The notes below the pieces were generated by a model, which searched no databases, was not told where the DNA came from, and saw only the letters and a list, made by a program, of their open reading frames with translations. A stretch of DNA of 64,000 nt, taken from the NCBI GenBank assembly GCA_964187785.1, contig OZ076414.1, positions 1-64,000 on the forward strand. Direction: 5' to 3'. The DNA is from Amphiscolops sp. MND2022. Taxonomy: Eukaryota. The number at the start of each line of letters is the position of its first letter. The stretch's first letter is position 1. The translations under genes were made by a program, and so were the position numbers. Shown one piece after another: positions 11,941 to 42,984 of the stretch.

Positions 11941-11945
11941 TAGTA

Positions 11946-19041: not shown

Positions 19042-19151
19042 GAAACCTGAAAACAGATGATGTGGTATTTGAGAGTCAGAGCAGAATAGTTTTGGTACTA
19101 GAACAAATCGTGCAAGCACAGACAAAAACGAAAAACATGCAAATAATTATA

Positions 19152-19505: not shown

Positions 19506-20573
19506 CCGGACCTGGGCCTCTGGTTGATGAGGCCCCAGGCGAAGTGATCTATTTTATCCAGTTCACTCCACAGAAGCATTTTTGATTTTTTAGTTTATGT
19601 GGGTATGTGTGGGTGAACTGAGGTTTTCAAAGTTTTGAGCACAGAATGAATTTTTGAGCTCGGTAGGCTCAACTCTTTTTTCAAGACTCCAAGCACCTCC
19701 TTCGGTTTCTTTCCAGTTTCACTTTTATCTGGGAAACATCAAAGATTTTAACCCAGGCGAAATTTCCATATCTAATCATTTGGAAACTCGGATAAATAAC
19801 CACATTCACTTTTTAGGGCCCATAAGACCCGGATCAAAGGCTCCGCTATCTTTTGAACCTGTTTTCAAAGTCTTGCAGGGTCCACCTTAATTCCTTTGAA
19901 ATTCGGAACCCACTAAATTTGAGTTGCCAAGTGATGAATCAAAGAAAAGACCGACACTCTGTTAATTGGCATTGTCTTTTCAGTTATAATTAACAAAAAA
20001 ATGTTGCCTTCACAATTCCAAAACAAATTAAAAGGCATTTTGATTGCTTTTTTTCCAAAAATTTAGCATTTTTTCCCGACATTTTCATGTTTTTTTCAGA
20101 CATTTTAGGTCATTTTGTCTCTTTACAGAATGTGAAAATTCGGTGTAAAAAGAAGCTGGGATGATTTCCATAAGCTTGCTGGAATAGTTAATGACTGTTT
20201 CCATTACGCAAATGAAGGCAATATCAGGGAAATTTGTTCCACAGCAATCACACTTCTAAAGAAAGGTAATATAATCTAAGAGCACATTCATTTCAAAGTT
20301 GCTAGATTAAAAGAATTTTTATTGATTCCATTTCCTTTCATCCCATCTGCGTTCCATTTCCATTCCTAACAAACCACTCCTTCCATTTTTATTACTTTCC
20401 AGCACGCCAAGGTAAGGAACTTTCCTTTCATTGCCTGAAATACGAACAAAAATTTATCGGGCCTGTATTTTGTTTTCGGATTTTGTTCGGCTCTCGGTGA
20501 GTATTTTCATATTCGGATACGTCATGTTCGTATCGCAAATATTACGTAACGTTTCAGAAAGTTTTGTGATCAC

Positions 20574-20627
20574 CATATTTGGTTACTCACTTTACTCTGA
20601 ACGATAATGCCACGTACTTTTACTACT
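20574..20627 (-). repeat. Right terminal inverted repeat of the Polinton (54 bp)
   Basis: Exact reverse complement of 2514-2567; followed by GACAAT. Confidence 0.97.
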
Positions 20628-21887: not shown

Positions 21888-23336
21888 GTGTAAATGAATA
21901 TACAATAAACTTAGAATGAGCACTCGTTTAACTGTTCAAAAACATAAAATTTTCCTAAAGTTTGAAAAACTGTTTTGAATAATCTCACAGTGCCGAAAAT
22001 GAGCTAAATGAAAATAACTGTACTCTTTTTAAAACCTGCAGAAATATCTGAATTCGGGTTATTGAATGCATAAAAGTTAATTTGGCTGTTTGAAACTTCC
22101 ATTTTGCTAACCGAATTTTGCATTTTTACCTCATAAAACAGCCATGCATGGAACCATAGGCTGTCCTTGACCCAAAACTATTTTTTTTTGGAATCCGAAG
22201 ATATTGTGTAATATTCTATAAATAAACTAGTAAAGCTTTTTCGAAACTGGATCTCAAGTTTTTCAGTAGAAAAGTTATTAAAATTTTGAGGAAATGACAT
22301 TTTTCCAAAGAATCTATCCATCATCCTGAAGAATCTTGAAAGCTAAAGTCAGAATCTAAACATTTTTGTCATCAGATGATGTTTCTGTTTTTTTTTCAGA
22401 GGAGGTAAAAATTGTCTTTTGGGACTTGCACTTGGTATGAGTAGCCCGGGGAAACGAACGAAGTTTCAAGACGTAACAGAGACTGTTTCCACCGAGAAAG
22501 ATACATCAGGTGATATTCAAAAGTTTCAAACCTGCAACTAAAAAGAGCGAAATTTTGTAAGCGTGGAAAAAAGTTTTTAAGCTTGGACTCCTCTTGCATG
22601 AAATAAGAGAGACTTAGGTAGAACACCGATTTTAACAATCCGGCTCTCGAAAGTTAACTAACGCCAATTTTTTTGAGATAAAAGCAGTAATACGAAGCAC
22701 CATGTTTGAAGTGCATTCTGACTTTTTTTTGCAAGTTTTTGAATAAATCAGTCACACTGCAACAACGAACTGATATTCTTGAATTTCTAAATATTTGGCT
22801 CTGTTATGGCGTTGGTGAATACAAAAATGCTAGAAGTATCCGTTCGGTCTAAACTTTGTTTGAATTGAAACGTTTTTGAGACGCAAAATGTGTGAATTTT
22901 TTTTTGGGAAAATCAAAAACGTTATACGAGAAATGAAAACGTTATATCCGAAATTTGAAAGCGCTACATCCGATACTTCGAAAATGTTTGATACGAATTT
23001 AACTATATGTTAGATGTTATATGCTAACGTGAATTTCTGCTATTTTGGACAATTATATCTAAAAATTTGGGTACATTTTTTGCCTGAAGTGTCAAAACAG
23101 TTATAGAGAATATCCTCAAAGTATTTACATTCATATAACATTCTCTAACTATTGAAAAGTTTTCTTCACCAACAAAATTTGGTTTCGTGTTGGGGGGATT
23201 AGCACCAAGGTGTACCTGGGGGGGATAGAACACATTGTCCAAAGTTGAATTTGATGGTGGTAGTTTTACCAGATGTGTTTTTGTTTCCGATCACCCAGTG
23301 GGCAAACGGTCGATTTTCCAGGCGGTTGAAAAGAGG

Positions 23337-23562
23337 AAAAAGAAGAAAAAACATAAAAAGAAGAAGCGTCGAGAGAGGAGGCGACGAGAAAGAGAAAGAC
23401 AACGACAAATAGAAAGAGCAAGACAAAGACAAAGAGAAGTAGAAAGAGAAAGGATGAGGAGAGGAAGACGAGTGAGGGGAGGAAGAAGACCAGCAAAAGG
23501 GGGAAGAGGAAGGGGAAGAGGAGGAAGAGGAGGAAGAAGGGGGAGAGGAGGAAGAGGAGGCG
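23337..23562 (+). repeat. Purine-rich low-complexity tract (GA/GGA/AGA repeats)
   Basis: Almost pure A/G sequence such as GAGGAAGAGGAGGAAGAAGG. Confidence 0.85.
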
Positions 23563-23616
23563 TTCCTCCGGGTAAAGATTTTTTTTATTTTTTAAAAAAT
23601 TAAATTACTTTGTAAT

Positions 23617-25627
23617 TGTCATGAACATTACGGTATGGTTTGTCACCGTGTTCATTGTTTAGGGTAGTTTTAGCTTTCACATTGTGCTGAGCTTCGGAAT
23701 AACTTTCCGGTCTCTCATCGGATCTCTCCCATCCCCTTCTAGTCTCTGGTCCTGCACCGGCCATAATAACGTTTTGGATCTGAGGCAAAACCTGGTTATT
23801 GATGGCATCACTTATGGCTCTTTGGATCTGTGAACTAACGCTGTTCATCATCTCATCCATCTCTCTAGATATTCTAGAGTTCAATTCACTCGATAACCTA
23901 TTGATCTCAGCTTGGGAATCTACACTAACTGAATTATGACCATAACCGGCGCTAGTTCCGGTGTCACGGTTTCTATGATCGGAATGGAGATTTATTTCTT
24001 CATCTTCCAAATTATTACTTGTAATGCTTTCTTGCCTCCTAATCGAGGTGCCATTAAGGCTGTCGTCTCTTTCTGTCCCATTAAAGTGATTCTCACCTAA
24101 CATAATATCAAGGTTCTCAATGTCTGAGAAAATCTCTAATCCCCTAGATTTTCTTGCCTTCTTTTGTTTTCTTGTAGTAGGCATTAAGACGGAACCGGGT
24201 TGAAAACTTGAACTGTCAATTTCGGAAAAGTTAACAGTGAAACCGTTTTGGATAACTTTACTAGCATGGACCAAAATGAATTAATGAATTCCCCAAGCGG
24301 GGCAATGGTATATATACCGCACGGGGAGTGGCAAACGCATTTTTTGCATGACCAGTAAATCATATGACATGTAGCATCAAAGAAATTATCCCAGCGTTTA
24401 CATATTTCGGGATTTTCAACTAACAATTCTCGGAAAGAATTTAATCAATTCGGTAACATCAAGCAAATCATTGACTAAACTATTTGCATCAAAGTGTCGC
24501 CGAATTGTAATCATAAGGTCACGCGGCCGTTCAAATTCCTGTTTTGACATCTTCAACAAGTATTCAAAAGGCACACGGTACATCGAATAGCATCAATTAA
24601 AATGTTTACACCGCTAATTTTTCAGGAATGCTGACAATCTCGTGTCAGCACGTGTCCTGTTAGCAGGCTAAATCAACTTGTATCCAACAATGTTACTTGT
24701 AATAACATACATTGGCTTTTATATACTACACCCATAAATTACATGTGTGAACTGGCTACTAAATCCGGACAGGTCTTTTGGACCAATAATAACAGCAACA
24801 TCATACACTGGTATTGATTGTATCAATTAGTTTCAAGAACTGCATGATTGTTTGTAACGTACTTGTAACTATACATGACATATAAAGTACACTAAATAGT
24901 TGAAACTAGCATCTGGATAATAAGTTTGCAAGAGGGCCTTAACCGGCCATTGTCCGGTTGGCCATAGCAGCAAAGGATGGAAATCAGGCAAATGGCCTTA
25001 TTCGGCCTAATATTTGAATGAGTAGAATAAAGCGCCAATTAGCTAAAATGCACGTTTAATTAGCACAGGGACATGGTTAGACAATTATTTAGCGAACTAT
25101 AGCGATGTCTACGTTAATATTCTCTCATCTGAACACTAAGGCCGGAACCGGCCGTTTGACTAAAGCGTCAATTAATTGAAGATGAAATTCTGGCACATGG
25201 CCTTAACCGGCCATTAATTAAATACAGCACTAGTAATACTCAAATGGATGAATATGATTGGCTAATATGTTGAGCTCAAGTGACGTTTCCGGAATTGGAG
25301 TTTACGTCCACTTGAACTCGTTTCCTTTACGCTTTCTAGCTGCCTTTGTATTGCTATAACAGCGCGTTTTTATTGCATATCTAACTTTACATTGTCAATA
25401 CATCATCTGTGCTTTCAAATGCTGGCATTAACGGACTAATACCTGCAAACTATATACTAAACGCAAAATTAGCAACGATAATAGGTACAACTTGTAAACC
25501 AAAAAATAAAAACAAAGTTTGTGTTTTAATGTTTACCTCTAATATGTTGGTAATGTTCCGGCCGCTATTTCCTGCCCTTCTGCAGTAGTTGTAATTCTTG
25601 TGCCGTCACAGGTGGCAGCCTGCGACA
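23617..25627 (-). repeat. 3' LTR (2011 bp, TGTCGC...CATGACA)
   Basis: Full-length homologue of 40364-42376 (inverted) and of 39260-40363 (direct, partial); contains an intact copy of the gag N-terminus (ATG 24184). The U3 end is inferred from the junction at 40364. Confidence 0.88.
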
Positions 25628-26324
25628 CTGCGGGTGCTAGGAAGAGCAAGCTTCCTGCGTTCAAGCCATTTTCATAAGCCTCTCGTCGTAGGGCGGTGAT
25701 ATAAGCGGGCTCGCTGCCAGGCGTCGATCTCCGCATGTAACAGTTCACCTTCTCTTCTTTTATTTGATCTCTCGATTTGCCGCAAACCATGCAGCCTGTA
25801 TGCAAACGTTGGCTCACGTCCTGATACGGCTTGATGTTTTGTATGTGGTAAGACGCATGGAAAGTTCCAGAGGTAGACTGTATAAGCGGGGTGTCAATGC
25901 TTGGTCCCCTTTCATGATCTGGGGGAGACATTGGGGACTCTAGAACAGGCAGTACAGTTGCACAGAGCTCAACTTTTGATTTCCTTTGCCTTTTCGACGG
26001 AGCCATGCACATCTCCTTATTAAAATACTCGAATCCCAGTTTAGGTGTAGAGGGCGGAACAGGCTGGGCACAACTTGGTCCAGCTGCCATCTCGTCTACT
26101 AGTGCTTCTGTCGTCATCCCTCGTCCCGCGATGGGGATTGGAACTGCTTTCACCTCCCGCTCTATTCTTTCTATGATCGCTTCCGTATCTGTGGACCAGT
26201 CTGAGTCCCAGGAACTTGAGACTTCATTTTCACTATCGCTCGAAATGTAGATCACAGAATCTGCTGAACTTTCTGAGTCTTCTTCAAGATCGAAAAGCTT
26301 TTTAGCTAGATTATATCTTTGCAT
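25539..26324 (-). CDS. Accessory ORF (261 aa) running into the U3 of the 3' LTR
   Basis: Open ORF with an acidic S-rich N-terminus and a CMVCG motif; the last ~29 codons lie in the LTR. Confidence 0.6.
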   Translation of the reverse strand: MQRYNLAKKLFDLEEDSESSADSVIYISSDSENEVSSSWDSDWSTDTEAIIERIEREVKAVPIPIAGRGMTTEALVDEMAAGPSCAQPVPPSTPKLGFEYFNKEMCMAPSKRQRKSKVELCATVLPVLESPMSPPDHERGPSIDTPLIQSTSGTFHASYHIQNIKPYQDVSQRLHTGCMVCGKSRDQIKEEKVNCYMRRSTPGSEPAYITALRREAYENGLNAGSLLFLAPAVSQAATCDGTRITTTAEGQEIAAGTLPTY

Positions 26325-26676
26325 TATGATTTTCTTAGCAATTTTGCTGATTGGAAAAGTCGACTAGTTTGAGTGAGATTTCAGAGTGGAATGAATTCAC
26401 CAACTCAAAAATTTAGTCGACTCGGACCTTTTCCCGGCAGTTCGTTTTTGGCGGTTGAGTTTTCGGTAAATCGTCCTGATCCGACGTAAACATTCCTGAA
26501 TGGAATTTTATAATTAGTCGGCAACCTTTGATAATACGGTGTTTACCCTTCATCAGCACCATCAATCTGAGATGTGTTAATGACGCTTGAGTTGTAAGTA
26601 TTATCTCCACCCGTTTCAAGTGGGTAATTAACAGTTTGCCTGAGAGCGATTAACGGCACGCGACGCGGAATTCTTT

Positions 26677-26774
26677 CAAAATGGCTTCAGCCAATCAGCT
26701 TTAAGCTTCGATAAATTGCAAAATTAAATAACAAAAATGGCGAAAATAATAAATCCAAATAATCCAAGATGGCG
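26677..26774 (+). promoter_or_regulatory. Cluster of three YY1-like motifs in the divergent intergenic region
   Basis: CAAAATGGCT, AAAAATGGCG and CAAGATGGCG match the AANATGGCG consensus; they lie between divergently oriented ORFs at 26324 and 27370. Confidence 0.35.
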
Positions 26775-27369
26775 AAAATTCTAACTAAAAGGTAACTAAG
26801 ACAACTGAACGAAACGGCAAAATAAAACAGGGCAAACGGCCATAATCGGCCATTAACTAAATAGGCTGCAAATAATGAAGATCTTTGTACATTTCGCTGG
26901 CAGACTCCATGTACAGAATAAATATGTAAATAACCAAATAATATTAGTCTGGTAAACTTTCTTCAGCCACGAACTCCAACTTCTAATTCAATTACCCCAA
27001 TTTAATTCCAGTTCAATTCTGATTATTTTACTTCTGCTTTCTTTATCTGAAATCCTTCACCAGACAGCTTTCGCTACTCATCTTTAACCTCTCCAACAGC
27101 CTTCCTCTCTGAAGTATCCCCGGGACCCGTCCCTAATCCGGATTCGGCCAGATTCTACATCTCTGGAGCCTGATTGGTTCGACATTGATAGGCGAAGCAG
27201 AGCAGAATGTCTTCAGTTGAAGGTTGGTTTGCTTTGGTTTTGAACCTAATTTAACTTGATCAGGGCTAAATTTGTTCACAAAATGCTTCCTGTTTCCATC
27301 AGCAAACACGTGATAACACGTTTTTTTCAAATTTTCAAAGTACTTACGGAAGTTTTCTAATGCGGTAGA

Positions 27370-30300
27370 ATGGATTTCTTTCAAGGAAGCTCACCGCCAA
27401 ATTTCATCTCCTTCTGTTTAGAACATCAGAATGTTGATGAACCACAAGTCCAAAGCAACACTACAACTGGCAATCCCACTGGGCCTCCTCAACGTCCAGT
27501 TCCCATTTCAATGCCCAGCAGTGCACCTTCTCCTCCTCCATTTCCCTCAGTCAGAGCTGTTCTCAGTCAAACAATGCAGATGGCTGTTGATTCTCCTTTC
27601 AGCAATGAGAGCAACATTGATGTCACCACTTATGCGGATGAGATGGTTCAGCGGATGGAAATTTCCCAAAGCCTCATCGGTGTTGATCCTGCTCGCCACG
27701 ATGAGGAAGGTCCATTTACGGCCCAAATCCCAACTGCACAGGCCACAATTCGGGATCCTGAATTTGTACGCTCAAGCACTCCAAATTCATCCAACCAGCC
27801 TGGGGCTACAGTAGTCAGTCTTTCCCAGCTTGAATCATCCCTCTTCGTTGTGCCAAAGACACAAGCTGACCTCCCTGAATTACAAGTCAACCAGGACCAG
27901 ACTCAAGAGGTGTCTGAAGCTTCATTCCTCCAGTCTGAAGAGAATGCTCCATCCTCAGTCATTGAACCACCGCCACTTCCTGGGAGAAATGAGCGGGCCA
28001 AAGCCTCGGGTGAACATAGCGACACCAACCAAACACTGGAAAGTGCAAGTCAGTCCGAAATCCCTGCTCTGTATGGGACAAACCCCTTTGACTCTGTTCC
28101 ACTATCTGAGGGAGGTGGCGAATCTGGGTCTGAGATTCATGACCCGGGCCAACCGGGCAAGTCAAGGGCAGGCCTACCGGTACAAGGTGAAGTTCTGCGA
28201 GATCTGTCAGGGCGAAGTAGAGCAACCCTGAAACAGTATTTTGAGACTGAGGACCCATACACCTTCCCTGTCGGACAAAGGGTCGTTGCCTTCACTGAGC
28301 CACAAGTCTACCATTTACTCCGAGTTTTGACTGATGAGGCCATAAATATGACTTGCTCCACTATGGAGAAGATGGTAATTGGAGCTGTCAGTGGGACATC
28401 TGCAACAGCCCCTTCATGGACTGAAAGATTTCGGTCAGTAGCTCGTTCCTCTACTTCAGGTCCCAATCAACGAGTTGGGTCCAGCTCCGAAGGAATTCTG
28501 ACTGAATATGGTTCAGGGTCAGAATCCCAAGCTGACACGAGTATGCTTCAGGATGTCAGCGACTTCTTCAATCCTGATGAGAGTGATGGTGTCACGGAGA
28601 TGGCCCTAATTAACCAAGCCTTTGGCATAACCGCTTCTGGGAGTTCTCCTCCTGTAGCACAACCGGGACAGTCACGAGGCCTTTCTGAGGAAGGAACTGA
28701 GTCAGCCGAGAAGAGTAGCCTCGATGCCACATTGTCCGAGGTCCGTAACCGGTCTTCTGCCCAGAAGTCCCGTCAGGGAGTTGTGGCAGCCAAATCTGCT
28801 AAAGCCAAAAGGGGACCAAAGCGCGGAGTACCCATGAGGGAGGAGTTTTTCTCCAAAATAAGGTGGACGAGGTCTTTCATCTCTGGGCCAACTGACCCTC
28901 TCCACAACCCACACATGGTATGGTGCCACATGTGTAAGAAAAACTTCAGCATTAAAACTAAGGGCACCGTTGAGATCTTGCGCCACCATAGAACAGAAAA
29001 GCACCTACGTCGCGATCAAAGGTGGAGATATGAACACCTCAGAACAACTGATTCGGTGACCGGAAAGATTCAACATCGGGTTCGTGGGAGGAATGGCAAA
29101 ATCCTCAATAAGAGTGATCTAGCCCATGAACTGCCTAAATTCATCCACACTGAGCTCATCGATGTAGGAGAGAGACACCCCTTTTATGAGGATTATCTGA
29201 AGGGTCATACTTTCGCACCTGTTACGCCTCAGTCGCGGTTGCGGACTCAGATTTGCCTTGTTGGAGACTTTGTCCAAAGTTCGGGAGACCTGGCTCTGCT
29301 TCGTAAACTGTGGGCGAGGGCTGGCAACTATACAGGGTACCAAGCGGCCTTCCAAGACTTCGATTGGAGCGAAGATCTTATACTGGTATGTTTAATCAAC
29401 TGCTTTTCATAGAGTCATGGTTAGCATAACAGAGGGTTAGAAAAGCAGCAGCACATAATCTTCCAATTTTGTTCCATTTCAGGCCATCTTCCAACACATC
29501 TTCAATTGCATGATGGAAGACGTGTCCAATCAGGTTGCCGCTTCCCAACATTTTGGGATCGAATTTGAGAAGAGGGGGACCAATCGCTACATGTCCCTCC
29601 GATTCTGGAATGGTGCCCAGCTTTGTCGGGTCTTCATCTGCCGGAGTGGTCTTACCGGCACTGGGCTTAGTGAAGAACTGGGCTCTCTGTCACGGCTGTT
29701 GTCCGTCATTTCTACAACCCCCGATGTAGTCGCCATCTCAGGATGTGCCGTCGACCTGATCAGGACAGTGGACAAACATCCCTCTTACCCTCGGGGCGTG
29801 CAGAGCTGTTTCCGCTTCGAGTGCCTCAACCTCCAAACGCTGATGCACAAGATGAATTACAGTGTGTTTGGCCACATTGACATGTTCTGGTGCTTCAACG
29901 CCTGTTAGTTTCACTTGGAGGATGCCTCTCAGAAGACTGGATCATTTAATCAGCTGAACTAATTCGAGTAAGTTCACTTTGTGAATTCAGTCTGTAAGGT
30001 ACTAGTGTGAAGAGATAAACTACACCAATTGGTCTCTTGATCCTAAGAGCTGTAATGTTTTAGGCGATTACAACTTGTACACTCGAAGTGAAAAAGGTAC
30101 CAGATTTGTGCCGGGACCTGCTGAAGAAATGGAAGTCAATTCTGCGATACCTCTCAGTCCATTCTCGCAGACAGGAAAACCAAGGAGTCCACAATAAGGT
30201 TATACCTCTTTAATGGTACTTATTTCCTTTAGGAGGAGTTCAGGCTAATTGCCACCCTTTTGGTACTGTGGGTAGGGTTATTTGTCTCGTATTCCCCCGT

Positions 30301-31629
30301 GTCTTTCGCAGGCTCAGAGTTTTGAGTGGTCCCTCATCATTTACAATTCCTTCACCGCCAAATTAGAGCTGTTCCAGCGCCTGGTCAGCGATTGTGAGTA
30401 TTTCCTATTTCGTGATAGTCACTTTGGTCTGTCGTCCTTTAAGGACCTTTAGATTTTGTATTTCAGACGTCACCAGTTTCGCTATCAATCTCGCTCAAAG
30501 ACGGGACGCTTCCTTCTTCCTGTGCGGAGAGAAATGCAGTTACATCAACCGTCTCTGTTTTCGTGTTTTCCGACCCGACACCGTGCCATTAGAGAATGCC
30601 TGGTTTCTGCTAATGGACTTCCAGCTTGGCCAAGGCACACTCAGGGACGATGAAGACTTCCTGGTGCGTCTTAAGATAGCCAGCAGAGTTGCCACTGCCT
30701 GTAACCTGAAAGCAGCCGGACTCCACTTTAACGAAAAGTCCAGTAAGGCAGCCATTGCCAAAACAGCTGAAGTTGCGAAGTCAGATTTTGTGTCCAGCGC
30801 CAAGGACTTTATCAAATTTCTGTTGTCAGGGGTCCTCCAACACACAGAGCTCGCTTCTGACCTTATCAAGGGACTAGCCGCGTTCGATCCCTTTATTTTG
30901 TTCCAAAGGCCTGTGGAAGTCGCCTTACACCATTTCGACTATTTGTATTCGACATTCCAGTTGCGTTCCTGGGTCTCTGCATCGAATGAGTCAGTTTGCC
31001 GAGATGAATATGTGGCCTTGTTGGACTATCTCCGTGCCAATCATTCCACCGAATTCGGTTCCATCAGTCATCCTCCTGACCTCATTGACTTTTTTATGGG
31101 CTTAGATTTCCTTCAAACCCACGACCACATTTGTTACTTGTTCAAGTTGAGCTGTTTGTGTATAACATCTGTTAGCCCCGAGTATCCCCCAGTGTCTTTT
31201 GGAAAGATTGACACGAGAGGACTTCAGTCCCGTTTGGCAGACGTTATCTTGCCCTGCCAGAGTTACTTGACATCAGTGCCTGATTCCCTGCTTGCCTGTT
31301 GCACTGAGTCCTGACTTGAGAAGTTCTGTCATTTGTCCACTTCGTTTGGACAATCAAGTTTCGCTGCCGATTATGACCCTTGGACCTTCGTAGACGGTTT
31401 CGGCCGTTCTGCTATTTACAAGACTCTTGTGACATCTTATCGTTCTGTTCTTGCTGGGTCAGACTTCCATTTTAGGAGTCCCACTCTTCCTGATGTTTCT
31501 TCTGTGCAAGACGCACCTGCTGTCAAGCTGCCTAGTGAAGGCAAACGTAGACGGATGGAAAGGAGTTGTTCCCGTAGTAGATCCTCATCTGTCATTGAAG
31601 AATCCCCTGCTGGTAGCTCTAAAAACTAA
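27370..31629 (+). pseudogene. Antisense multi-exon accessory gene of the Gypsy element, with a BED-type zinc finger and a possible hAT-like C-terminus
   Basis: Exon 27370-29385 has WCHMC...HHRTEKH. Intron 29386-29482 (GTATGT..TTTCAG) and intron 30394-30466 (GTGAGT..TTTCAG) are in frame; further acceptors at 30232 and 30311; in-frame nonsense codon at 31312. The middle exon boundaries are uncertain. Confidence 0.7.
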
Positions 31630-31871
31630 CTGTACATATGTATTTATGTACTTACAGACTGTAAATTTTGCTGATTTTCTGTTTGTATTATTTGTTTCAT
31701 TTTGTTTTTCTTGATTTCCTGATCCCGTATTTATTTTCCTTGCAAGGGATCGTCCAAATGTTCCATTATTTATTCAGAAAATTTTGCTGCATGGGACTGA
31801 TAAAAAAGAAAATAAAAGAGAAAAAAGCAGAACAGTTCAGGGCTAATTTCCTGAACCGAATTTAATTTTCT

Positions 31872-34800
31872 CTAGTATCTGTAGTCTTCTGAGTAGTTTG
31901 GGTTGGGGGTTAGGCCTGAGATTAAATTTCCCTCCTCGAGGGCTCAGACTTTCGTTTCTATTCTCATTTTCAGGTATTTCGGGCACGATAATATCTTCCC
32001 CCCTTTTTGGAGAATTTTGTAGGTCATTATCGTTGGTTGAATTTCTTTCTGAAATGATTTCGTCCTTTTTCAGGTCATTTGCTGTTCTCGGCAAATGTTT
32101 TCTTGAGTTTTTGGCGAAACGGCCTCTTTCGGCCAATCAGATTCTCCATTTGGTATTGCTTCGGTAGCGTCATTTCTCCTCGTGGCGTCATCACTTAAGC
32201 GTCCATTCCGACTGTGTACCGCGTTGTTGTTATTCATTTCTTCTCGCGTGATTATGTAATCTGCGTCATTTGTATTTTCTGCCGGATTCGGCTGTGCGCC
32301 GCTCGGCAAGCCAGTCGGAACAGGTGTGCTGCCTCGTGTAGCTAGCTGTTCACCAAAGTCGGTTTCCCACGTTATGATATATAAATCATCTTGCGGGATG
32401 ACAATTTCTTCATCTGGCTGTAGCCGTTGTTCTCGGAAATTGTCCTCAAGCGGTTGGTTGGGAATAAATTTTGTAAGGCGAATTCGATGCAAAATTTGAG
32501 TTTTATTTGTATTAAGTCGTCGTACTATGTAGTTTTCGTTGGGTAAAACTTTTTGGACTATAAATGGTCCAACCCATCGATAATCACGGAATGGAATCTT
32601 TGATCCTTGATTGTCCGCTTTCGGCTGTAGGACAAAACAGTACTCGCTCTCCTTTAATGGAGCAGCTTTCGCCTTGCGATCGCAATATTCTTTGTATTTA
32701 ATATACGACTGCATAATATTCTGCTTCGTCTTGTCAATCAAGGTTTTCGTCCGGTTTTGGATTTCTTCAGCAAATTCGGTTGTAGGGCTGATCTTTTCGT
32801 TTGGATTATTTCCAAGCTTGTGATCCAGAATATTGTAGGGAATTCTGCCATGGAATACCCTTGTTGGTTCACAACCGATGCTGGTATGATAGCTAGTTTT
32901 ATGATTAAGTACTGCTAATGGCAAGTATTTGTGCCATTGTTGGCGGTATTCCCCGCATGCCATTTTGCGATTTGTCTTTAATGAGGCATGGGTCCGCTCT
33001 AATTTCCCAATTGTCTGCGGGTGTTTCATCGTTGAACATTTGAGTGTGATGCCCAAAATCTGCGTAACCTCCGCAAAAATCGTAGAAGTGAATGCAGTAC
33101 CCTTATCAGTGATAAGAGTTGTTGGTAGATATGCATGCTTGGTCATGATGTCAATGAGCGCTTTTGCCACATTGATCGCTGATGAGTCCGTAAGAGGATA
33201 TGCGAACAAATATCTGGAAAATACGTCGATTGCCGTTAGGACATTTTCTTACCCTCCACTTGGGGGGAGATTCGGCAATATGTCGATTTGCATGGCGTCT
33301 TCAGGTCCAAGGTCCCACTCGGGCAAGTTGAGCAGCTCAGGTGTGGTTGTTGCGTTGGGGACTCTTTTGTCTCTGGCACATTGTTCGCACCCTTCTACCC
33401 ACTTTTTGACGTGTTTAGCCATGCGAGGGTAGTAGTACCTCTGTCTTATTTCCTGTAACATTTTTGAAATCCCGGGGTGTTTATGCGCTGTCCCGTGAAG
33501 GGATTGAAGCAAATCCCGGAGTAAGTGCTGCGGGAGCAAAATTTGATAGTTTTTAATATTGCCTGTTTCATCAAAATATTGCCTCGTCAGGATTTCGTCC
33601 TTTAGTACAATTCGTTCCAGATTGTTTGCGTAATGTCTATATCGGGCATCCTGGTGCAGTAGATTTTCTGAATACTCTTCATGAAGCAGTTTTGCTTTCA
33701 ATTGTTGTAGTACTGCATCTTTGGATTGCTCGATAATGATTTGGTTCGTTTTCCTCAATCGGACTTGTATATCGGGGTGTTGCTTGACCAGATGTGTTGA
33801 CAGAGTTTTTATAGTAACAGTGGGCTCATCAGTTGCTGGATTTTTCGTGATTGCTTCTTTCCTTGCCCAATACTGTTCTTCTGTCTCATCGTCGTCATTG
33901 GTGTAGAAGATTTGTTCTTCTTGTGACACCCCTGCGGATTGGACATTGATTTCGATTGGTAGTGTTTGTATCTTCGCGAACATTTTAAATCTTCGCGAAT
34001 TTTCATCACCAATTTGTCCTTCGGATCTGCTTCCAATCGGGACAAATAGTCGGCAGCTGTATTTTGTGCCCCTGGGATGTGTGCTATGACAAAATTGAAC
34101 TGGATGACATAATCACACGCGTTCCACAGGGCTGGGGGTATTATTTTCGTTTGGAAAAATCTTGTGACAGCTTTGTTGTCCGTAAGGATGATGACCGGTT
34201 TTGGCGCACCCCAGAAGATATGTCCGAATTCTTTAAATGCAAAATAAATTGCTAGAAATTCCTTTGCATATATTGACATCTTGATTTGTGCTGGGGTGAA
34301 AATTTTTGATCCATATGCGACCGGTGCATACGATTTTCTGAGTGATGTAAATTTCTGACTTGGGTCGTCTTCAATTAGGACCGCGTACCCGGCTGCACCA
34401 AAACTTGCGTCAGTCATTAGTGCTATTTGCTTGTTCGGAATGGGTTGCTGTAGGGCCAAATCGCAACATTTGTCTAGTGCTTTGTTGATTTCTTCGAATT
34501 GCTGGACTAATTCTTTCGATACTAGGACTTTTTCGTCACTTTTCAGCATCTTGTAGAAAGGGGCAAGGCGTTCTGAAAGTCTTGGGACATAATTTCTGAA
34601 GTAATTCAAAAATCCCAAATAACGCTGTAAAGCCTTTTTCGACTTTGGGAACTTAGTCTTTTCTAGGAAGTTTTGAACATTCTGCTTTTGGGGTTTAACG
34701 CCTTGTGGGGTAATTGTCCGTCCAAGAAAATCAATCTCTTTTGCACCAAAGTGACATTTGTGCATTTTCAATTTAAGGCCTGCTTCCTGGATGCATTTGA

Positions 34801-37691
34801 ACGTAGCTCTCAGGTTCGTCATGAGGTGGTCAGCATCATTGGCTGCGATGCCGATATCATCCACGTACTGGGCGCACTGATCCGCTTTGATAACTTTATC
34901 GAGGTATTCCCTCATAAAACTCGAGAATGCGGATAGTGACCGGCTAAGACCTTTTGCCAAACGTCTGTAGGCGAATGTGCGACTGGCAAAATTGAAAGCC
35001 AACATTTCGATTGAACGTTGGTCGGCCATTGGTAGGCAGTGATATGCCTGCGAACAGTCTAATTTACAGAACAGTTTTTTGCCTGCCAAGTGTTGGGCGG
35101 CATCAACTAGTGTACTGACGGGGTGATTATTGTTGATATAATCATCCGAGATGAGGTTGTTGATTTTTCTCAAGTCAACCAAGAGTCGGAGTTTCCCATT
35201 CGGCTTCTTTTGTGCAAATATTGGACTCGCGTATTTCGAAAATGGCAGTGTAGTTATTATGCCCTATTTGTGTAACATGGCTAATTCAACTAGGATGTCC
35301 TCCTTCAAATTGATAGGAGCTGGAAGGCTTTGACTATAGGCTGGGGAATCGTCCTTAGGCGTCAGTTTCACCTTGAATTCCTCGTTCATGCCTATATCAA
35401 ATCGGTGTCGTGCAAAGATGTCATGGAATTCGACTAACAGTTCCTCAATTTTCTCCTTTTCTTCAGGAGTAAGGGTGGAATCTTTCCAATCAAAGTTTTC
35501 TAAGAATTGTGCACGCGATTCCTCATCTTTGGAGGGGTCAAGTGTCTCCAGGTCCTGTAAGGCCTGTAATTCTCGAAGGATTCGTTTTTGTATAGGTGTG
35601 TGTTCCTCAGGATTTCCAGAATTTTCTGGAGTCGGGAACCAATAATTTTCGGAGTTTTGCGGATTTCTATTGGTCTTGATTAGACTGCTGACATAGTGGG
35701 CTGCCTGCTCCTGGTCATTCTGCAAAAGCATTACAGTGCATAGACAAGCTTTTTCTGGCCATTTTGCGGAAACCACGACAAGGATTTGCGGAATCCATGA
35801 CACGCTTACAGAATTCCAATCTCTTTGATGTTTGCGGAATCTAAGAAAAGCCCTGCCTTTGATGTTGCGGAAAGTAAGAAAATCTTACTTTCCACAAATT
35901 CAAATCTCGGATTCCACGGAAAAATTTAATGAGCCAATTAACCGTCTTGGACTCAATTATCTATCTTAGATTCCGCAATTGAAACTGGTCCTCAATTTAA
36001 TCTCTTGGATTCCGCAAAAAAATTCTAGTCTCCTCAAATTACACCCTAGCCTATTCTGAGAATCCTAGATCCCTGGATCTCCTTAAAAGACCTGAGATTG
36101 GTACCAAATAGAATTTTCGAGAGTTTTAATGTGATTATGTTGGTATTGAAGTTCTTTTTTGAAGAACTTTTGAAATGATGGAAACCCTTGATTGGGACCA
36201 AATAGTTTTAGTGTTTTTATGTTTGTATTGAAGTTCTTTTTATGAAGAACTTTTGAAATTATGGAAACCCTTGATTGGGACCAAATAGTTTTATACGGTA
36301 CATAAATTATACTTGAAACTTTGTTTTCCAAGAAATTTCGATTTTATGGGAAACCGTGTTTGCAAACGTTCATTTAGCAAACAATTATTGCGTCCATACT
36401 GTCAATTAAGTAAATTAGTTTGATTCAGAGATAAAAGGAAAATAGCCGACACTTCTACGGATTCTGAGATCAAGTTGAGGATTAAGATTTTGTGGATTCT
36501 AGGACACCAAATTTTCAAGCAATTTGATTGGTTCACAAAATTGTTGTGGAATCCGGGACCATGAAATGCGGAAAGTAAGACAAAAAGTTGCCGACAGCTC
36601 TGCAGCACAGCTAATGTTTTAAGTATTTGTTATTGGATTCCACAGAATTGCGTTGACGCTGTCTCGGTTTCCACAAAACTAGTGGAAATTAATCAATTTT
36701 GCACGTTTGAAGACATGTCGGTGGAATCTAAGGGGTTACACGCACAGAATTGTGTTTGTAGAAAATTAGCCTGTCTATGCACTGTAATGAGGTGCCAGGT
36801 TGATGCCGGGTCTACCGGTTTGACATACTTCATCTGTTCTGGCGTCATGACAGAGAAATTGGCAATATGAAGTCCCTTTTTGAGTTTATAAGGGTGGTCT
36901 GTGAAATTGTTCACTGGTATCAATATTTTGCCGTCATTCAGAGTGATCAAAGCTGGGCAGAATGTGATGTCGCCCTCTTCATGTAGAAGGTCGCTCGGTT
37001 GCAAAATTCCAGTGACAGCATTCTCAGGGTACAGAAGGGAATTGGTCCTAATTAGGACTCTATCATTTGGTGGAATAGTTATCTCAATAGGGTTGAGAAT
37101 TGGTTCTAATACATTCGAATTTTTCTGGTCCGCTGTTTTGAGCTGCATTGAGGAGAACGGGAAATTCAGTATTCCTTGTCTCATGTCCAGAACTGTATGG
37201 TTTCGTTGAAGGAACATTAGGCCAATAATCGGACCTGTCAGGTGTTCCATGACTATAAAGATCTCATGAAACTCGATGTAACCAACTTCAAATTTGAGCT
37301 CTATGGTACTCTTAGGAGTTTCCAATTGCCCATTAGCGACCATTATTTGGAAATTCGGAGGCGGACCTTCCCGGATAACAGATTGTGAAGATAAAAGTCG
37401 AAATTTCCGGAGGTCCATTTCAGGAATTGCACTGGACAGCGCTCCAGTGTCAATAAGTCCATCTATGGTCAATTCCCCAAAGTCCATTGGGAAGTACAAC
37501 ATGCGTTTCTTGCATTTGAGATTGATGTTGGTCGACGGTGGTATACAGTCTGGTTCACCGTCTCTAGTGATTAAGACATTTTGGAACTGTTTCTCGTCTA
37601 TCAATGATTGTGGTATGGGTTCAACATTGCTGTCATGGGTCTCGGTCCCCAATGGGTTTGGGAACACTGGATGGTTTGTGCCATCATTCAT
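31872..37691 (-). pseudogene. pol: Gypsy pol (protease, RT, RNase H, integrase), disrupted by stops, frameshifts and an insertion
   Basis: LIDTGA protease; YVDD RT; TDAS RNase H; H..H..C..C integrase zinc finger; TDKGTAF and LERTH integrase core; GPF motif. Confidence 0.95.
35729..36789. mobile_element. Non-autonomous DNA transposon (1061 bp), CMC/CACTA-like, inserted in pol
   Basis: 22-bp TIR CATTACAGTGCATAGACA(A/G)GCT; 2-bp TSD AG; removing it restores ...TWHLLQND in frame; many subterminal GCGGAA/GATTCC repeats and an internal ~90-bp tandem duplication. Confidence 0.85.
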
Positions 37692-38133
37692 TTGCCAGTT
37701 TTCAATTATTGCTCTGGTCTCCTTATTGTGGGTGATTGGAGGGTTCTCGTGGACTGTCCGATTGTAGTGTTCAATATCATCTAGAACGTATTGAAGTTGT
37801 AATAGTTCTTGGTTATAGATCTCGGTGTCCCAATAGGGATCTCCGCCGTAGTCTTGATCGATATACGTTGGATTGTAGTTATCGACTAGGGGAATGGGCC
37901 TGAACCGAGTAGTAAAGAAGGTGTATAGTCAGGGTCCCAAACAGGAATTGGTTTTTGGAATAAATGGGTGTTGTTATAGGTGATGGTGATAGCTTTGTCC
38001 ATCTGTTGCTGCCAGACAAGAGAGGGATAGCCCATCAATTGTTGAGTATATTGATGAAAAGTTTTTGTTGGAGGATCCGACCTGATGTATTGGCGGACGG
38101 ATATCAGTTCGTTGTATTGGAGTCGTGGCGAAG

Positions 38134-39829
38134 TTAGTTTTTTGACTCATCATTAGAAGATGAGGACTGGGAGTTTGAAGATGTTGACCTGTTTTGCTGT
38201 TTCTGAGCCTTTAAATTGGGTTTACCGTCATTAGCGTCATCTGGTCTGGTGCGTTTGGGTTTGAGATCCGCACCAGCACCTTGCCAACATCTTTCTTCCG
38301 GGTGGTTCTTTTTGCCACAGGTGCCACACTGTGGATACGTTTTCTTCTGAGTTGACTTGCCTTGTTGGGCATCTTTCTCTTTCTTCTTTTTGAGCTTTTT
38401 ACAGTCTTTGACCATGCGGCCCTTTTCCTTGCAGTAATTGCAAGTGATGTCTGACATTTGCCCAGTGGACAGAGGAGTTTTAGGCTTGGCAGATGAGGAA
38501 GTCATTGTCGCCATTGGTAGGTCATCTGATTCCTCAAGGGCGTTGAGCTCCAATTCTCTCTCCAAATGAGCAACAATTTCGTCGTATGAGCCATTTTCTA
38601 GTCTGGCCATGTTGACAGACCGTTTCAACTTAGGTGGCAGTTTTGCGTAAAGCAAGCTGTCAATCATTTTCTGTGCATGATCACCAAACGCCTTTTTGCT
38701 CCCTGGTTTAATTCTTTGAGAAAATCAGGCAGTTTCATTGTATTGGGATCGAAGACCAGACGGTGTCATTTATGTTTGGCAGTCGCCTGTGACTCGGGCT
38801 TGACGTATTTTTGTCTAAAGATGACCAATACGTCCTCTAGAGTTTGTCGGTTGCTTGAGCTGATGTTTCTGAATGTCTGAAGAGCATTCTTCCTCAATAA
38901 AGAGCGGAAGTGATTGATCTTCATTTGCTCAGTCATTTCTGGTTGCATCTTGATCATAGTGTGAAATAGGTCTTCGAACCGCTCCAATTTGTCACTTTTG
39001 CCATCGAATGTCATAGTATTTGAGTTGACTGGGCGTATTGTGAGTTGCTGGGCTGTCGGTCTATTCTGCATCGTAGTCAAGACGTCTGCCAGTCGAGTGA
39101 TGGGGTCAGGGTCAGCAGCCGTAGCAATTCTCTCCTGCGCTGGGATCGTCGTGTCGAGGTTAATGTCCTCATAGGACCTGTCGAGATGATTCCTTGATGA
39201 GATTCGTCCTGTGAGAAACTCAGAAACTTGATTTGGAGATTCGTTGTCTCCTGTCACCATGTCATGAACATTACGGTATGGTTTGTCACCGTGTTCATTG
39301 TTTAGGGTAGTTTTAGCTTTGACATTGTGCTGAGCTTCGGAATAACTTTCCGGTCTCTCATCGGATCTCTCCCATCCCCTTCTAGTCTCTGGTCCTGAAC
39401 CGGCCATAATAGAATTTTGGATCTGAGGCAAAACCTAGTTATTGATGGCATCACTTATGGCTCTTTAAATCTGTGAACTAACGCTGTTCATCATCTCATC
39501 CATCTCTCTAGATATTCTAGAGTTCAATTCACTCGATAACCTATTGATCTCAGCTTGGGAATCTACACTCACTGAATTATGACCATAACCGGCGCTGGTT
39601 CCGGTGTCACGGTTTCTATGATCGGAATGGAGATTTATTTTTTATTCATTTCTAAATTATTACTTGTAATGCTTTCTTGCCTCCTAATCGAGGTGCCATT
39701 AAGGCTGTCGTCTCTTTCTGTCCCATTAGAGTGATTCTCACCTAACATAATATCAAGGTTCTCAATGTCTGAGAGAATCTCTAATCCCCTAGATTTTCTT
39801 GCCTTCTTTTGTTTTCTTGTAGTAGGCAT
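38134..39829 (-). pseudogene. gag: Gypsy gag (starts inside the LTR), with stop codons
   Basis: FDGKSDKLERF..F capsid-like motif; zinc knuckles CNYCKEKGRMVKDC and CGTCGKKNHPEERC; stops near 39635, 39437 and 38766. Confidence 0.88.
39248..39259 (-). promoter_or_regulatory. Primer-binding site TGGTGACAGGAG (tRNA-Leu-like)
   Basis: TGG immediately follows the LTR end ...CATGACA at 39260; the tRNA identity is inferred from similarity to TGGTGTCAGGAG. Confidence 0.75.
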
Positions 39830-40363
39830 TAAGACGGAACCGGGTTGAAAACTTGAATTGTCAATTCCGGAAAAGTTAACAGTGAAACCGTTTTGGATAA
39901 CTTTACTAGCATGGACCAAAATGAATTAATGAATTCCCCAAGCGTGGCAATGGTATATATACCGCACGGGGAGTGGCAAACGCATTTTTTGCATGACTAG
40001 TAAATCATATGACATGTAGCATCAAAGAAATTATCCCAGCGTTTACATATTTCGGGATTTTCAACTAACAATTCTCGGAAAGAATTTAATTCGGTAACAT
40101 CAAGCAAATCATTGACTCAACTATTTGCATCAAAGTGTCGCCGAATTGTGATCATAAGGTCACGCGGCCGTTCAAATTCCTGTTTTGACATCTTCAACAA
40201 GTATTCAAAAGGCACACGGTACATCAAATAGCATCAATTAAAATGTTTACACCGCTAATATTTCAGGAATGCTCACAATCTCGTGTCGGCACGTGTCCTG
40301 TTAGCAGGCTAAATCAACTTGTATCCAACAATGTTACATGTAATAACATACATTGGCTTTTAT
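39260..40363 (-). repeat. Truncated 5' LTR (U5-side 1104 bp)
   Basis: Direct repeat of 23617-~24721; breaks off at ...GGCTTTTAT. Confidence 0.9.
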
Positions 40364-42376
40364 TGTCGCAGGCTGCCGCCTGTGACGGCACAAGAAATAC
40401 AACTACTGCAGAAGGGCAGGAAATAGCGGCCGGAACATTACCAACATATTAGAGGTAAACATTAAAACACAAACTTTGTTTTTATTTTTTAGTTTACAAG
40501 TTGTACCTATTACCGGTGCTAATTTTGCGTTTAGTATATAGTTTGCAGGTATTAGTCCGTTAATGCCAACATTTGAAAGCACAGATGATGTATTGACAAT
40601 GTAAAGTTAGATATGCAATATAAACGCGCTGTTATAGCAATACAAAGGCAGCTAGAAAGCGTAAAGGAAACGAGTTCAAGTGGACGTAAACTCCAATTCC
40701 GGAGACGTCACTTGAGCTCAACATATTAGCCAATCATATTCATCCATTTGAGTATTACTAGTGCTGTATTTAATTAATGGCCGGTTAAGGCCATGTGCCA
40801 GATTTTCATCGCCAATTAATTGACGCTTTAGTCAAACGGCCGGTTCCGGCCTTAGTGTTCAGATGAGAGAATACTAACGTAGACATCGCTATAGTTCGCT
40901 AAATAATTGTCTAACCATGTCCCTGTGCTAATTAAACGTGCATTTTAGCTAATTGGCGCTTTATTCTACTCATTCAAATATTAGGCCGAATAAGGCCATT
41001 TGCCTGATTTCCATCCTTTGCTGCTATGGCCAACCGGACAATGGCCGGTTAAGGCCCTCTTTCAAACTTATTATCCAGATGCTAGTTTCAACTATTGAGT
41101 GTACTTTAAATGTCATGTATAATTACAAGTACGTTACAAACAATCATGCAGTTCTTGAAACTAATTGATACAATCAATACCAGTGTATGATGTTGCTGTT
41201 ATTATTGGTCCAAAAGACCTGTCCGGATTTATTAGCCAGTTCACACATGTAATTTATGGGTGTAATATATAAAAGCCAATGTATGTTATTACATGTAACA
41301 TTGTTGGATACAAGTTGATTTAGCCTGCTAACAGGACACGTGCCGACACGAGATTGTCAGCATTCCTGAACTATTAGCGGTGTAAACATTTTAATTGATG
41401 CTATTTGATGTACCGTGTGCCTTTTGAATACTTGTTGAAGATGTCAAAACAGGAATTTGAACGGCCGCGTGACCTTATGATCACAATTCGGCGACACTTT
41501 GATGCAAATAGTTTAGTCAATGATTTGCTTGATGTTACCGAATTGATTAAATTCTTTCCGAGAATTGTTAGTTGAAAATCCCGAAATATGTAAACGCTGG
41601 GATAATTCCTTTGATGCTACATATCATATGATTTACTAGTCATGCAAAAAATGCGTTTGCCACTCCCCGTGCGGTATATATACCATTGCCCCGCTTGGGG
41701 AATTCATTATTTCATTTTGGTCCATGCTAGTAAAGTTATCCAAAACGGTTTCACTGTTAACTTTTCCGGAATTGACAATTCAAGTTTTCAACCCGGTTCC
41801 GTCTTAATGCCTACTACAAGAAACCAAAAGAAGGCAAGAAAATCTAGGGGATTAGAGATTCTCTCAGACATTGAGAACCTTGATATTATGTTAGGTGAGA
41901 ATCACTTTAATGGGACAGAAAGAGACGACAGCCTTAATGGCACCTCGATTAGGAGGCAAGAAAGCATTACAAGTAATAATTTAGAAATGAATAAAAAATA
42001 AATCTCCATTCCGATCATAGAAACCGTGACACCGGAACCAGCGCCGGTTATGGTCATAATTCAGTGAGTGTAGATTCCCAAGCTGAGATCAATAGGTTAT
42101 CGAGTGAATTGAACTCTAGAATATCTAGAGAGATGGATGAGATGATGAACAGCGTTAGTTCACAGATTTAAAGAGCCATAAGTGATGCCATCAATAACCA
42201 GGTTTTGCCTCAGATCCAAAACATTATTATGGCAGGTTCAGGACCAGAGACTAGAAGGGGATGGGAGAGATCCGATGAGAGACCGGAAAGTTATTCCGAA
42301 GCTCAGCACAATGTGAAAGCTAAAACTACCCTAAACAATGAACACGGTGACAAACCATACCATAATGTTCATGACA
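40364..42376 (+). repeat. Full-length LTR in inverted orientation (2013 bp)
   Basis: Reverse complement of 23617-25627; starts TGTCGC and ends CATGACA followed by the TSD. Confidence 0.92.
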
Positions 42377-42984
42377 GTAATCATGTTTGAAGGTTAGAGA
42401 AGATAACAAATGAAATGACTTACAAATGTTAAACAAATCATATGAAACATAATGAACATCATCATCAACAAACATCAATTTCAACTTTAAGACAAATTAC
42501 CAATTTCCAGGTTGTGAGAAAAATATCAGTATGTTCTCTGAGGAGAAAAAACTACCCTAATCTTTCTTAAGCTTATAAAAAAGTGAATGTTTATTGGTTT
42601 TTCAGTCCATGAGCATACGATAGTGTTTACTAAAAACTTTACAAAGAGAGTTTCGAAGAGGCCCTGTCGTTGACGAAAAACTTCCAATTTTGGATTTGGA
42701 AGTCATTGCGGAAACTCCGCGTTTTTTTTGCAGTCCATGACCAAGTGATGAAACGTTTCAAATTTCAAAATTTCAAAGACGAAAGGAGTTTTTTTTAGTC
42801 GACGCTTTTCTTAAGAAAAGAGTCGACCATAGTCATGGCTTTTTGTCAGTGTTTTTTTCAAGACCACCTGAAGTTACCAAAATAGTTCTACCAAAAGTTC
42901 TACAAAATTTTGAGAAGACGCCAAATGGTACCTGTTAGCCCAAGGAACTGAACCAAAAAGGTTTCCTGCGTAACATACAATACC

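What the first reader, a model, noticed from the sequence alone, without database searches (positions are those of the whole stretch)
23617..42376. LTR retrotransposon integrated through two U5 ends: inverted LTR termini with a perfect TSD
Seen: GTAAT-[full LTR, -]-internal-[PBS, half LTR, -]-[full LTR, +]-GTAAT. Both outer ends are the same ...CATGACA end, and the internal junction falls exactly on TGTC of the other LTR end with no microhomology. Known: normal proviruses have direct LTRs with one U3 and one U5 end. Model A: half-site autointegration of the U3 end into its own 5' LTR, repair to a U5/U5 linear DNA, then integration. Model B: head-to-head insertion beside a solo LTR followed by palindrome-centre deletion.
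Basis: partly seen in the sequence, partly recalled or inferred. Interest (0 to 1): 0.8.

Follow-up and report, generated by a model that had tools for sequence, protein, structure and literature searches.

The report
Retrotransposon inserted by two identical ends
A dead copy of an ordinary jumping gene sits in a eukaryotic chromosome with the same end on both sides and its other end buried inside itself, probably the fossil of a mis-paired insertion reaction known mainly from test tubes, not a new kind of element.

Summary
The anatomy is confirmed to the base: GTAAT, full LTR (23617-25627, -), Ty3/gypsy gag-pol, PBS, U5-side half LTR (39260-40363), full inverted LTR (40364-42376), GTAAT. Relatives' proteins that read out of the LTR fix both termini independently, so all three junctions lie exactly on LTR ends: two U5 ends at the duplication and one U3 end joined to LTR position 906 without microhomology. 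The arms differ by 16 substitutions, so they are not a same-template artefact. The three LTR copies diverge roughly star-like (13:8:8 events; 9:8:8 outside a probable 290-bp conversion tract), which fits one origin at insertion. Best reading (0.6): integrase joined a U3 end into an LTR of its own cDNA pool, and a U5/U5 intasome inserted the product. Whether one cDNA or two donors were involved cannot be told. Double insertion plus deletion, nesting plus deletion plus flip, and host template switching remain possible. As written, no U3 promoter faces the internal domain, so the structure should not propagate. It is not DIRS-like. No reads or empty allele could be checked. Verdict: a real, rare, one-off aberrant integration of an abundant ordinary family.

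The parts
23612..23616 (.). [quoted passage not shown]
   Evidence: frequency 0.00098 in flanks
23617..25627 (-). LTR A, full 3' LTR (2011 bp); U5 end outermost, U3 end towards the internal domain
   Evidence: termini fixed by relatives; P0001 reads through the same LTR end into the same flank residues
23603..24184 (-). LTR-encoded N-terminal part of gag, open in A and reading into the flank
   Evidence: 1040 related clusters; relatives P0007, P0019, P0045 continue into internal gag
25539..26363 (-). Family-wide extra sense ORF (274 aa, no Pfam match) that runs 89 nt into U3; no purine tract at the U3 border
   Evidence: 233 representatives
27361..31629 (+). Broken antisense ORFs in the 3' internal region, with a BED-like C2H2 motif (recalled label) and a weak hAT/FAM200 lead
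   Evidence: no Pfam match; atlas scores up to 0.91, leads only
32070..35884 (-). Broken pol: RT, RNase H, then integrase (H2C2 + rve); Ty3/gypsy order
   Evidence: Pfam; Ty3 RT and Ty3 Gag-Pol among best solved matches
35732..36786 (.). 1055-bp TA-flanked element with short terminal inverted repeats, inserted later into pol
36693..39259 (-). Broken gag (DUF1759, CCHC motif) and aspartic protease region
39242..39259 (-). Primer-binding site, starts TGG directly after the U5 end of B, inside the gag frame; tRNA not identified
   Evidence: no tRNA gene in the window
39260..40363 (-). LTR B, U5-side part of the 5' LTR (LTR positions 906-2011); left arm of the inverted repeat
40363..40364 (.). Inner junction J1: exact U3 terminus joined to LTR position 906, 0 bp microhomology, inside a TATA-like motif
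40364..42376 (+). LTR C, full LTR in inverted orientation: 905-bp U3 spacer (40364-41268) plus right arm (41269-42376); U5 end outermost
41908..42198 (+). Probable B-C gene-conversion tract (partner about 39438-39728): no B/C difference in 291 bp; B and C share a frameshift and a stop absent from A
   Evidence: P = 0.12 as largest gap, 0.05 for the 187 bp between the two shared lesions
42377..42381 (.). Right copy of the target-site duplication GTAAT

Best explanation
A one-off aberrant integration of an ordinary, abundant Ty3/gypsy element, formed at or near the time of insertion. Shown in the sequence: three junctions lie exactly on LTR termini (U5, U5, U3), with a 5-bp duplication. Inferred step 1: integrase joined a U3 end to the opposite strand of an LTR at position 906 in the element's own cDNA pool (autointegration or donor-into-donor), losing the U3-side 905 bp. 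Inferred step 2: the resulting linear DNA had a U5 end at each side, and a U5/U5 intasome inserted it concertedly, making the duplication. End-joining of an intact U3 end to a trimmed one after U5/U5 insertion is counted with the two-donor route. Afterwards the copy decayed by about 1% per LTR, took a TIR element in pol, and the adjacent arms probably exchanged a 290-bp tract. It has no function and cannot reproduce this structure.
For: All three junctions lie on termini verified from relatives. J1 has 0 bp microhomology and an untrimmed U3 end, whereas host-primed aberrant HIV ends usually show short homology and are often truncated (PMC5041404, Discussion). Star-like divergence: 13:8:8 events on the whole arm (P = 0.42), 9:8:8 in the 817 columns outside the tract, 15 A-C events in the 905-bp spacer. 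Three routes reproduce the observed order symbolically. Precedent: purified HIV-1 integrase used U5/U5 pairs preferentially, with mostly 5-bp duplications, and gave donor/donor products (PMC8742673 passages); inversion products of autointegration are abundant in particles of one plant LTR retrotransposon (PMC7197481 passages) and described for Ty and HIV.
Against: Single example; no intermediate seen. B and C share two disabling changes absent from A and from relatives (Q at codon 121 in 114 of 120 relatives; no frameshift tail among 120), so a later conversion must be added, and its statistical support is modest (P = 0.12 and 0.05). The star test is weak: C's share could be 0.17-0.50 (90% interval), and the tract was defined after looking. 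The 5-bp target at J1 scores neutral against the family's inferred target profile (-0.24 bits). In the passages read, autointegration ends in circles, not re-integrable linear DNA. The U5/U5 precedent is in vitro and retroviral; I found no in vivo report.
Confidence: 0.6

Rival explanations
1. Host template switching on an ordinary provirus or a one-ended integration intermediate: synthesis leaves LTR B at position 906, copies the LTR backwards from its U3 end, and returns to the original duplication through the 4-bp GACA shared by both termini.
For: Gives the observed isomer and keeps an ordinary duplication. The termini share 4 bp. It would explain changes shared by B and C without conversion. 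Aberrant HIV ends can be joined to viral DNA in either orientation (PMC5041404). The U3 terminus can form a 9-bp hairpin (z = -1.95, marginal) that might focus a break there.
Against: The first switch hits the exact U3 terminus with 0 bp homology. The second must pick one of about 20,800 available 4-bp pairs. In PMC5041404 host-made ends usually give long duplications or deletions, not 5 bp. Outside one tract B and C are no closer to each other than to A.
Confidence: 0.13
2. One reading: two insertions at the same GTAAT, head to head at their U3 ends, one reduced to a solo LTR; the near-perfect palindrome then lost its centre (the middle GTAAT and 905 bp of one arm).
For: Reproduces the order. 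Inverted LTR tandems with a target motif at the junction exist in Drosophila (Rover; PMC5932611 passages). A deletion at a palindrome centre naturally has one end near the U3 terminus (established knowledge, recalled).
Against: Target choice in this family is loose: 72 distinct tails of 77, about 1 bit over 5 bp (inferred from amino acids, wobble positions poorly determined). The deletion must stop exactly at the terminal TG without homology. C is not measurably older than A or B.
Confidence: 0.12
3. Ordinary nested insertion: the element inserted in opposite orientation into the TATA region of a solo LTR whose duplication was GTAAT; the U3-side 910 bp of the solo were then deleted precisely through terminal microhomology, and the 905-bp spacer flipped between the arms.
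For: Every integration step is canonical, and J1 is then a normal U3 junction. The deletion would join two ends matching at 7 of 9 bases. Nested opposite-orientation insertions are reported (PMC5932611).
Against: Needs three separate later or earlier events, one of them base-precise. The solo should be older, but no copy or arm segment is an outgroup.
Confidence: 0.08
4. Assembly or library artefact (fold-back chimera, or mis-join of two loci).
For: No reads were available. The family has over 1000 related protein clusters. No protein spanning J1 or the right junction was found (0 of 15 hits; 0 of 13), although short ORFs are sparsely held. The orientation of the spacer could be an assembler's choice.
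Against: The arms differ by 16 substitutions and one 4-bp gap, so they are not two reads of one template. J1 has no overlap on which to mis-join. The matching 5-bp flanks have about 0.001 chance. P0001 shows the left junction in a second sequence version (3 of 194 residues differ).
Confidence: 0.07

Closest known systems
Ty3/gypsy (Metaviridae-type) LTR retrotransposons
   Same: gag-PR-RT-RH-IN order, H2C2 + rve integrase, TG...CA LTR, PBS next to U5, 5-bp duplication. The parent family is a member.
   Different: This copy has inverted outer LTRs (U5/U5), a third half LTR, and no U3 in front of the internal domain. The family also lacks a purine tract at the U3 border and has ORFs crossing both LTR borders.
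Inversion circles from autointegration (MLV, HIV-1, Ty1, Arabidopsis SISYPHUS)
   Same: J1 is the junction made when an LTR end attacks the opposite strand of the element's own DNA (PMC7197481, PMC2644782, PMC4751563 passages).
   Different: Those products are extrachromosomal dead-end circles with two such junctions. Here there is one, the molecule carries a complete extra U5 half, and it sits in a chromosome with a duplication.
Two-donor U5/U5 concerted integration by purified HIV-1 integrase (PMC8742673)
   Same: Two U5 ends inserted 5 bp apart; donor-into-donor products occur in the same reactions.
   Different: In vitro with short substrates. Here it would be a heritable chromosomal event of a retrotransposon.
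Aberrant one-ended HIV/ASLV proviruses (PMC5041404)
   Same: One end can be joined to further viral DNA in either orientation.
   Different: There the second host junction is host-made, usually with short homology, truncation and long duplications or deletions. Here both host junctions are exact LTR termini with 5 bp duplicated.
Inverted LTR tandems by double insertion (Drosophila Rover, PMC5932611)
   Same: Two LTR copies head to head at one site.
   Different: No target copy at the inner junction here, one arm lacks 905 bp, and the family has little target specificity.
DIRS1-like retrotransposons
   Same: Inverted terminal repeats around a gag-RT-RH cassette.
   Different: DIRS1 uses a tyrosine recombinase and internal complementary regions and makes no duplication (PMC3266345 passages). 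This element has a DDE integrase and a 5-bp duplication.

Membership tests
Ty3/gypsy LTR retrotransposon | pol order protease-RT-RNase H-integrase, gypsy-type RT | tested here: met
   Pfam; best solved RT match is Ty3 RT; Ty3 Gag-Pol is the best integrase match. No tree was built, so the clade is not assigned.
Ty3/gypsy LTR retrotransposon | LTR begins TG and ends CA; 4-6 bp duplication | tested here: met
Ty3/gypsy LTR retrotransposon | PBS next to the U5 end of the 5' LTR | tested here: inconclusive
   TGG start directly after U5; the matching tRNA could not be tested, none in the window
Ty3/gypsy LTR retrotransposon | Polypurine tract before the 3' LTR | tested here: not met
   No 11-of-12 purine window within about 125 nt; 47 of 51 relatives with the motif have the same coding sequence there, so this looks like a family trait
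Canonical integrated LTR element (this copy) | Two direct LTRs, one U3 and one U5 outer end | tested here: not met
   Outer LTRs inverted, both ends U5
Autointegration inversion product | Exact LTR terminus joined to the opposite strand of the element's own sequence without homology | tested here: met
Autointegration inversion product | Second, reciprocal U5 junction 5 bp away; circular extrachromosomal form | tested here: not met
   No reciprocal junction in the element; the U5 ends join host DNA
Autointegration inversion product | Junction made by integrase | not testable with these tools
   Inferred from the exact terminus only
DIRS1-like | Tyrosine recombinase instead of DDE integrase | tested here: not met
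   rve and H2C2 found; no recombinase family among the 12 element ORFs scanned
DIRS1-like | No target-site duplication; internal complementary regions | tested here: not met
   5-bp duplication present; self-BLAST shows no further internal match to the termini at E 1e-10 (very short matches would be missed)
Same-site double insertion | Copy of the target at the inner junction | tested here: not met
   a later deletion has to be assumed
Self-propagating inverted-LTR element | Promoter facing the internal domain; further copies with the same junction | tested here: inconclusive
   No U3 faces the internal domain in the written isomer; 0 of 15 protein hits span J1; no DNA collection of this genome could be searched

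The most novel reading that the evidence does not exclude
In living germ lines, integrase sometimes pairs like ends from two donors: a U5/U5 complex inserts into the chromosome while a U3 end attacks an LTR of the cDNA, so 'suicide' autointegration products are rescued as heritable insertions. Such U5/U5 elements with perfect duplications would form a recurrent class that direct-repeat LTR finders cannot see, and they would seed kilobase inverted repeats. This family, which lacks a purine tract and keeps a conserved motif at its U3 end, may be prone to it because its U3 end is made in an unusual way.
Probability: 0.3. Interest if true: 0.72.

Novelty: new variant of a known kind. Interest (0 to 1): 0.45.

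Why it matters
It is usually assumed that in vivo an intasome holds the U3 and U5 ends of one cDNA and that autointegration is a dead end (recalled; the second point also). A chromosomal copy with two exact U5 ends, a normal duplication and an autointegration-type U3 junction would be fossil evidence that like-end pairing, so far seen with purified integrase, also happens in a germ line. It gives a precise signature that can be counted in any long-read genome. The single copy is dead and has no evident function, so the importance rests on whether more cases exist.

Tried and rejected
1) That the true LTR is only 1.1 kb (B complete, C an inverted 3' region) or starts further upstream at a purine tract near 25755: rejected, four relatives join foreign sequence exactly at TGTCGC. 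2) That B starts at the RNA 5' end, making J1 a reverse-transcriptase jump: not favoured, since J1 lies inside the TATA-like motif, upstream of where a start is expected (spacing recalled, start site not mapped). 3) DIRS-like element: rejected. 4) B and C from one RNA template and A from another: not favoured, since A shows no excess outside one tract. 5) Second-haplotype evidence for the right end or J1: none (0 of 13; 0 of 15); weak negatives. Members of the P0001 cluster could not be listed, so its 4 members are unknown. 6) Contiguity of the flanks through a shared gene or repeat: no Pfam link among 56 flank ORFs and no element match elsewhere in the window; undecided. 7) Atlas searches on the antisense ORFs gave leads only. 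The sigma-70 scan is irrelevant to a eukaryote. 8) Literature: searches found no chromosomal U5/U5 element (48 and 52 returned 0 papers); the library lacks most subscription papers, and Garfinkel 2006 was not held. One search did not confirm my recollection of tRNA re-priming on plus-strand strong-stop DNA, so that source of a U5|PBS break is unverified. PMC12312487 (passages) concerns DNA transposons and was not used. 9) The ratio of 77 diverging to 11 internal tails was not used as a solo-LTR rate, because the length filter removes intact gag proteins. No structure or complex prediction was run.
Full report
Observation. Self-BLAST gives a full LTR A at 23617-25627, a half LTR B at 39260-40363 in the same orientation, and a full LTR C at 40364-42376 in the opposite one. 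GTAAT flanks both ends, a word with frequency 0.00098 in the flanks. The element lies on the minus strand: gag, protease, RT, RNase H and integrase follow in Ty3/gypsy order (Pfam), Ty3 RT and Ty3 Gag-Pol are the best solved matches, the frames are broken at several places, and a 1055-bp TA-flanked TIR element splits pol. The window is eukaryotic repeat-rich DNA; I did not try to identify the organism.

Which end is which. The CATGACA end is U5, because in B it abuts a TGG-starting PBS and the gag frame crosses it. Both termini were tested with relatives, since ORFs cross both LTR borders. A search with the LTR-encoded gag part found 1040 clusters. Of 148 proteins fetched lacked the anchor, 11 continue into internal gag, and 77 diverge right after VHD; 76 of these 77 begin with a residue whose codon can start with the terminal A, and they show 72 distinct 3-residue tails. 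For the other end, 51 of the 298 fetched proteins carry the SQAA motif; 4 join unrelated N-termini exactly there and 47 carry internal sequence. So the inner junction J1 is on the true U3 terminus. It has 0 bp microhomology in all three comparisons, and it cuts a TATA-like motif at LTR position 903-910. No purine tract lies within about 125 nt of the U3 end; the relatives suggest this is a family trait.

Is it real. The adjacent arms differ by 16 substitutions and one 4-bp gap, so they are not two copies of one template, and J1 offers no overlap for a mis-join. P0001 ends in the same flank-encoded residues as LTR A and differs at 3 of 194 positions: the left junction exists in a second sequence version. 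No such support was found for J1 (0 of 15) or the right end (0 of 13); short ORFs are sparsely held, so these are weak negatives. The cluster members could not be listed, reads and empty alleles were not available, and contiguity of the flanks stayed undecided.

Relative ages. Private events on the shared 1.1 kb are 13 (A), 8 (B) and 8 (C), compatible with equal age (P = 0.42); A and C differ by 15 events over the 905-bp spacer. Against a simple star, B and C share a frameshift and a stop in the gag frame that A and the relatives lack. Both lie in a 291-bp stretch where B and C are identical; outside it the counts are 9:8:8 in 817 columns. I read this as one gene-conversion tract between neighbouring inverted arms. 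The support is modest (P = 0.12 as largest gap; 0.05 for the 187 bp between the two lesions), the tract was defined after looking, and C's share of events could be 0.17-0.50. The data fit one origin at about insertion time and do not prove it.

Mechanism. Three junctions sit exactly on LTR termini, which is what integrase chemistry specifies. The best reading is a U3 end joined into an LTR of the cDNA pool and a U5/U5 complex inserting the product. A symbolic check shows three routes to the observed order: attack on a 5' LTR with later loss of the second copy's interior; attack on a 3' LTR with a later flip of the spacer; or an LTR-sized second donor, equivalent to a half-site lariat opened at the U5|PBS border. 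The flip isomer is an ordinary complete element followed by an inverted half LTR. Purified HIV-1 integrase prefers U5/U5 pairs, gives mostly 5-bp duplications and makes donor/donor products (PMC8742673, passages; its supplementary figure not seen). Inversion products of autointegration are documented as circles (PMC7197481, PMC2644782, PMC4751563; passages). The junction positions are shown; the enzyme and the order of steps are inferred. Confidence 0.6 for this group, about 0.35 two donors and 0.25 one cDNA.

Rivals. Host template switching (0.13) keeps an ordinary duplication through the shared terminal GACA and explains changes shared by B and C, and aberrant HIV ends can be joined to viral DNA in either orientation (PMC5041404, passages and Discussion). 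It must hit the U3 terminus without homology and choose one of about 20,800 4-bp pairs. Same-site double insertion with centre deletion (0.12) has a Drosophila precedent (PMC5932611, passages), but this family's target preference is about 1 bit (75 of 77 tails used; rough, from amino acids). Nesting into a solo LTR with precise deletion (7 of 9 bases match) and a flip (0.08) needs three events. Artefact 0.07.

Comparison and novelty. The parent family is a Ty3/gypsy member; this copy fails the direct-LTR test. It works like an autointegration product at J1 but lacks the reciprocal junction and is not a circle. It is not DIRS1-like: DDE integrase and a duplication, against tyrosine recombinase and none (PMC3266345, passages). 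As written, no U3 faces the internal domain, and the flip isomer would yield ordinary progeny, so it is not a self-propagating new architecture. Nine searches found no chromosomal U5/U5 element, in a library that lacks most subscription papers.

Verdict. A real and rare structural variant of a known kind: a dead, single copy whose junctions most likely record like-end pairing by integrase in a germ line. It would surprise a specialist moderately, and it offers a countable signature, but one copy cannot separate the routes. Interest 0.45; 0.72 if a genome-wide class is found (probability 0.3).

Noticed in passing
window 2514-20627: Polinton/Maverick-like element (label recalled): 54-bp identical terminal inverted repeats starting AGTAGT, 6-bp duplication GACAAT, with an A32-type ATPase, an rve integrase and long unassigned ORFs; an RT (RVT_1) ORF lies at its left border.
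   Followed up: partly
window 25539-26363 (-) and 40364-40390: An extra ORF, with 233 related representatives, runs into U3. Its SQAAACDG stretch at the U3 terminus is nearly invariant even in 30-60% identical relatives and can form a 9-bp hairpin (z = -1.95). It may be a cis element standing in for the missing purine tract.
   Followed up: partly
window 23603-24184 (-): gag starts about 570 bp inside the LTR and crosses the U5 end and PBS, so every solo LTR carries a 189-codon frame that reads into the flank.
   Followed up: yes
window 27361-31629 (+): Antisense ORFs inside the element with a BED-like zinc-finger motif and a weak hAT/FAM200 atlas lead; captured transposase-derived gene or nested remnant not decided.
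   Followed up: partly
window 35732-36786: 1055-bp TA-flanked element with TACAGTG-starting inverted ends and an internal 83-bp tandem repeat, inserted in pol.
   Followed up: partly
window about 56000-64000 (-): Strongly G-skewed region with an rve fragment (63163-63483) and an ORF matching Pfam Monjiviricetes_fusion (58919-59716): probably a second, env-bearing retroelement running off the window.
   Followed up: no
window 47288-48388 (+): Tc1-like transposase remnant (HTH_Tnp_Tc3_2, DDE_3).
   Followed up: no
window about 23322-23571 (+): Arg/Gly-rich frame between a possible splice acceptor and a GTAAAG donor 40 bp left of the duplication; the element may lie in an intron. No Pfam match.
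   Followed up: no
window 41260-41268: LTR C carries GTAAT, the duplication word, 2 bp from the position homologous to J1 (A has a different base there); probably chance.
   Followed up: no
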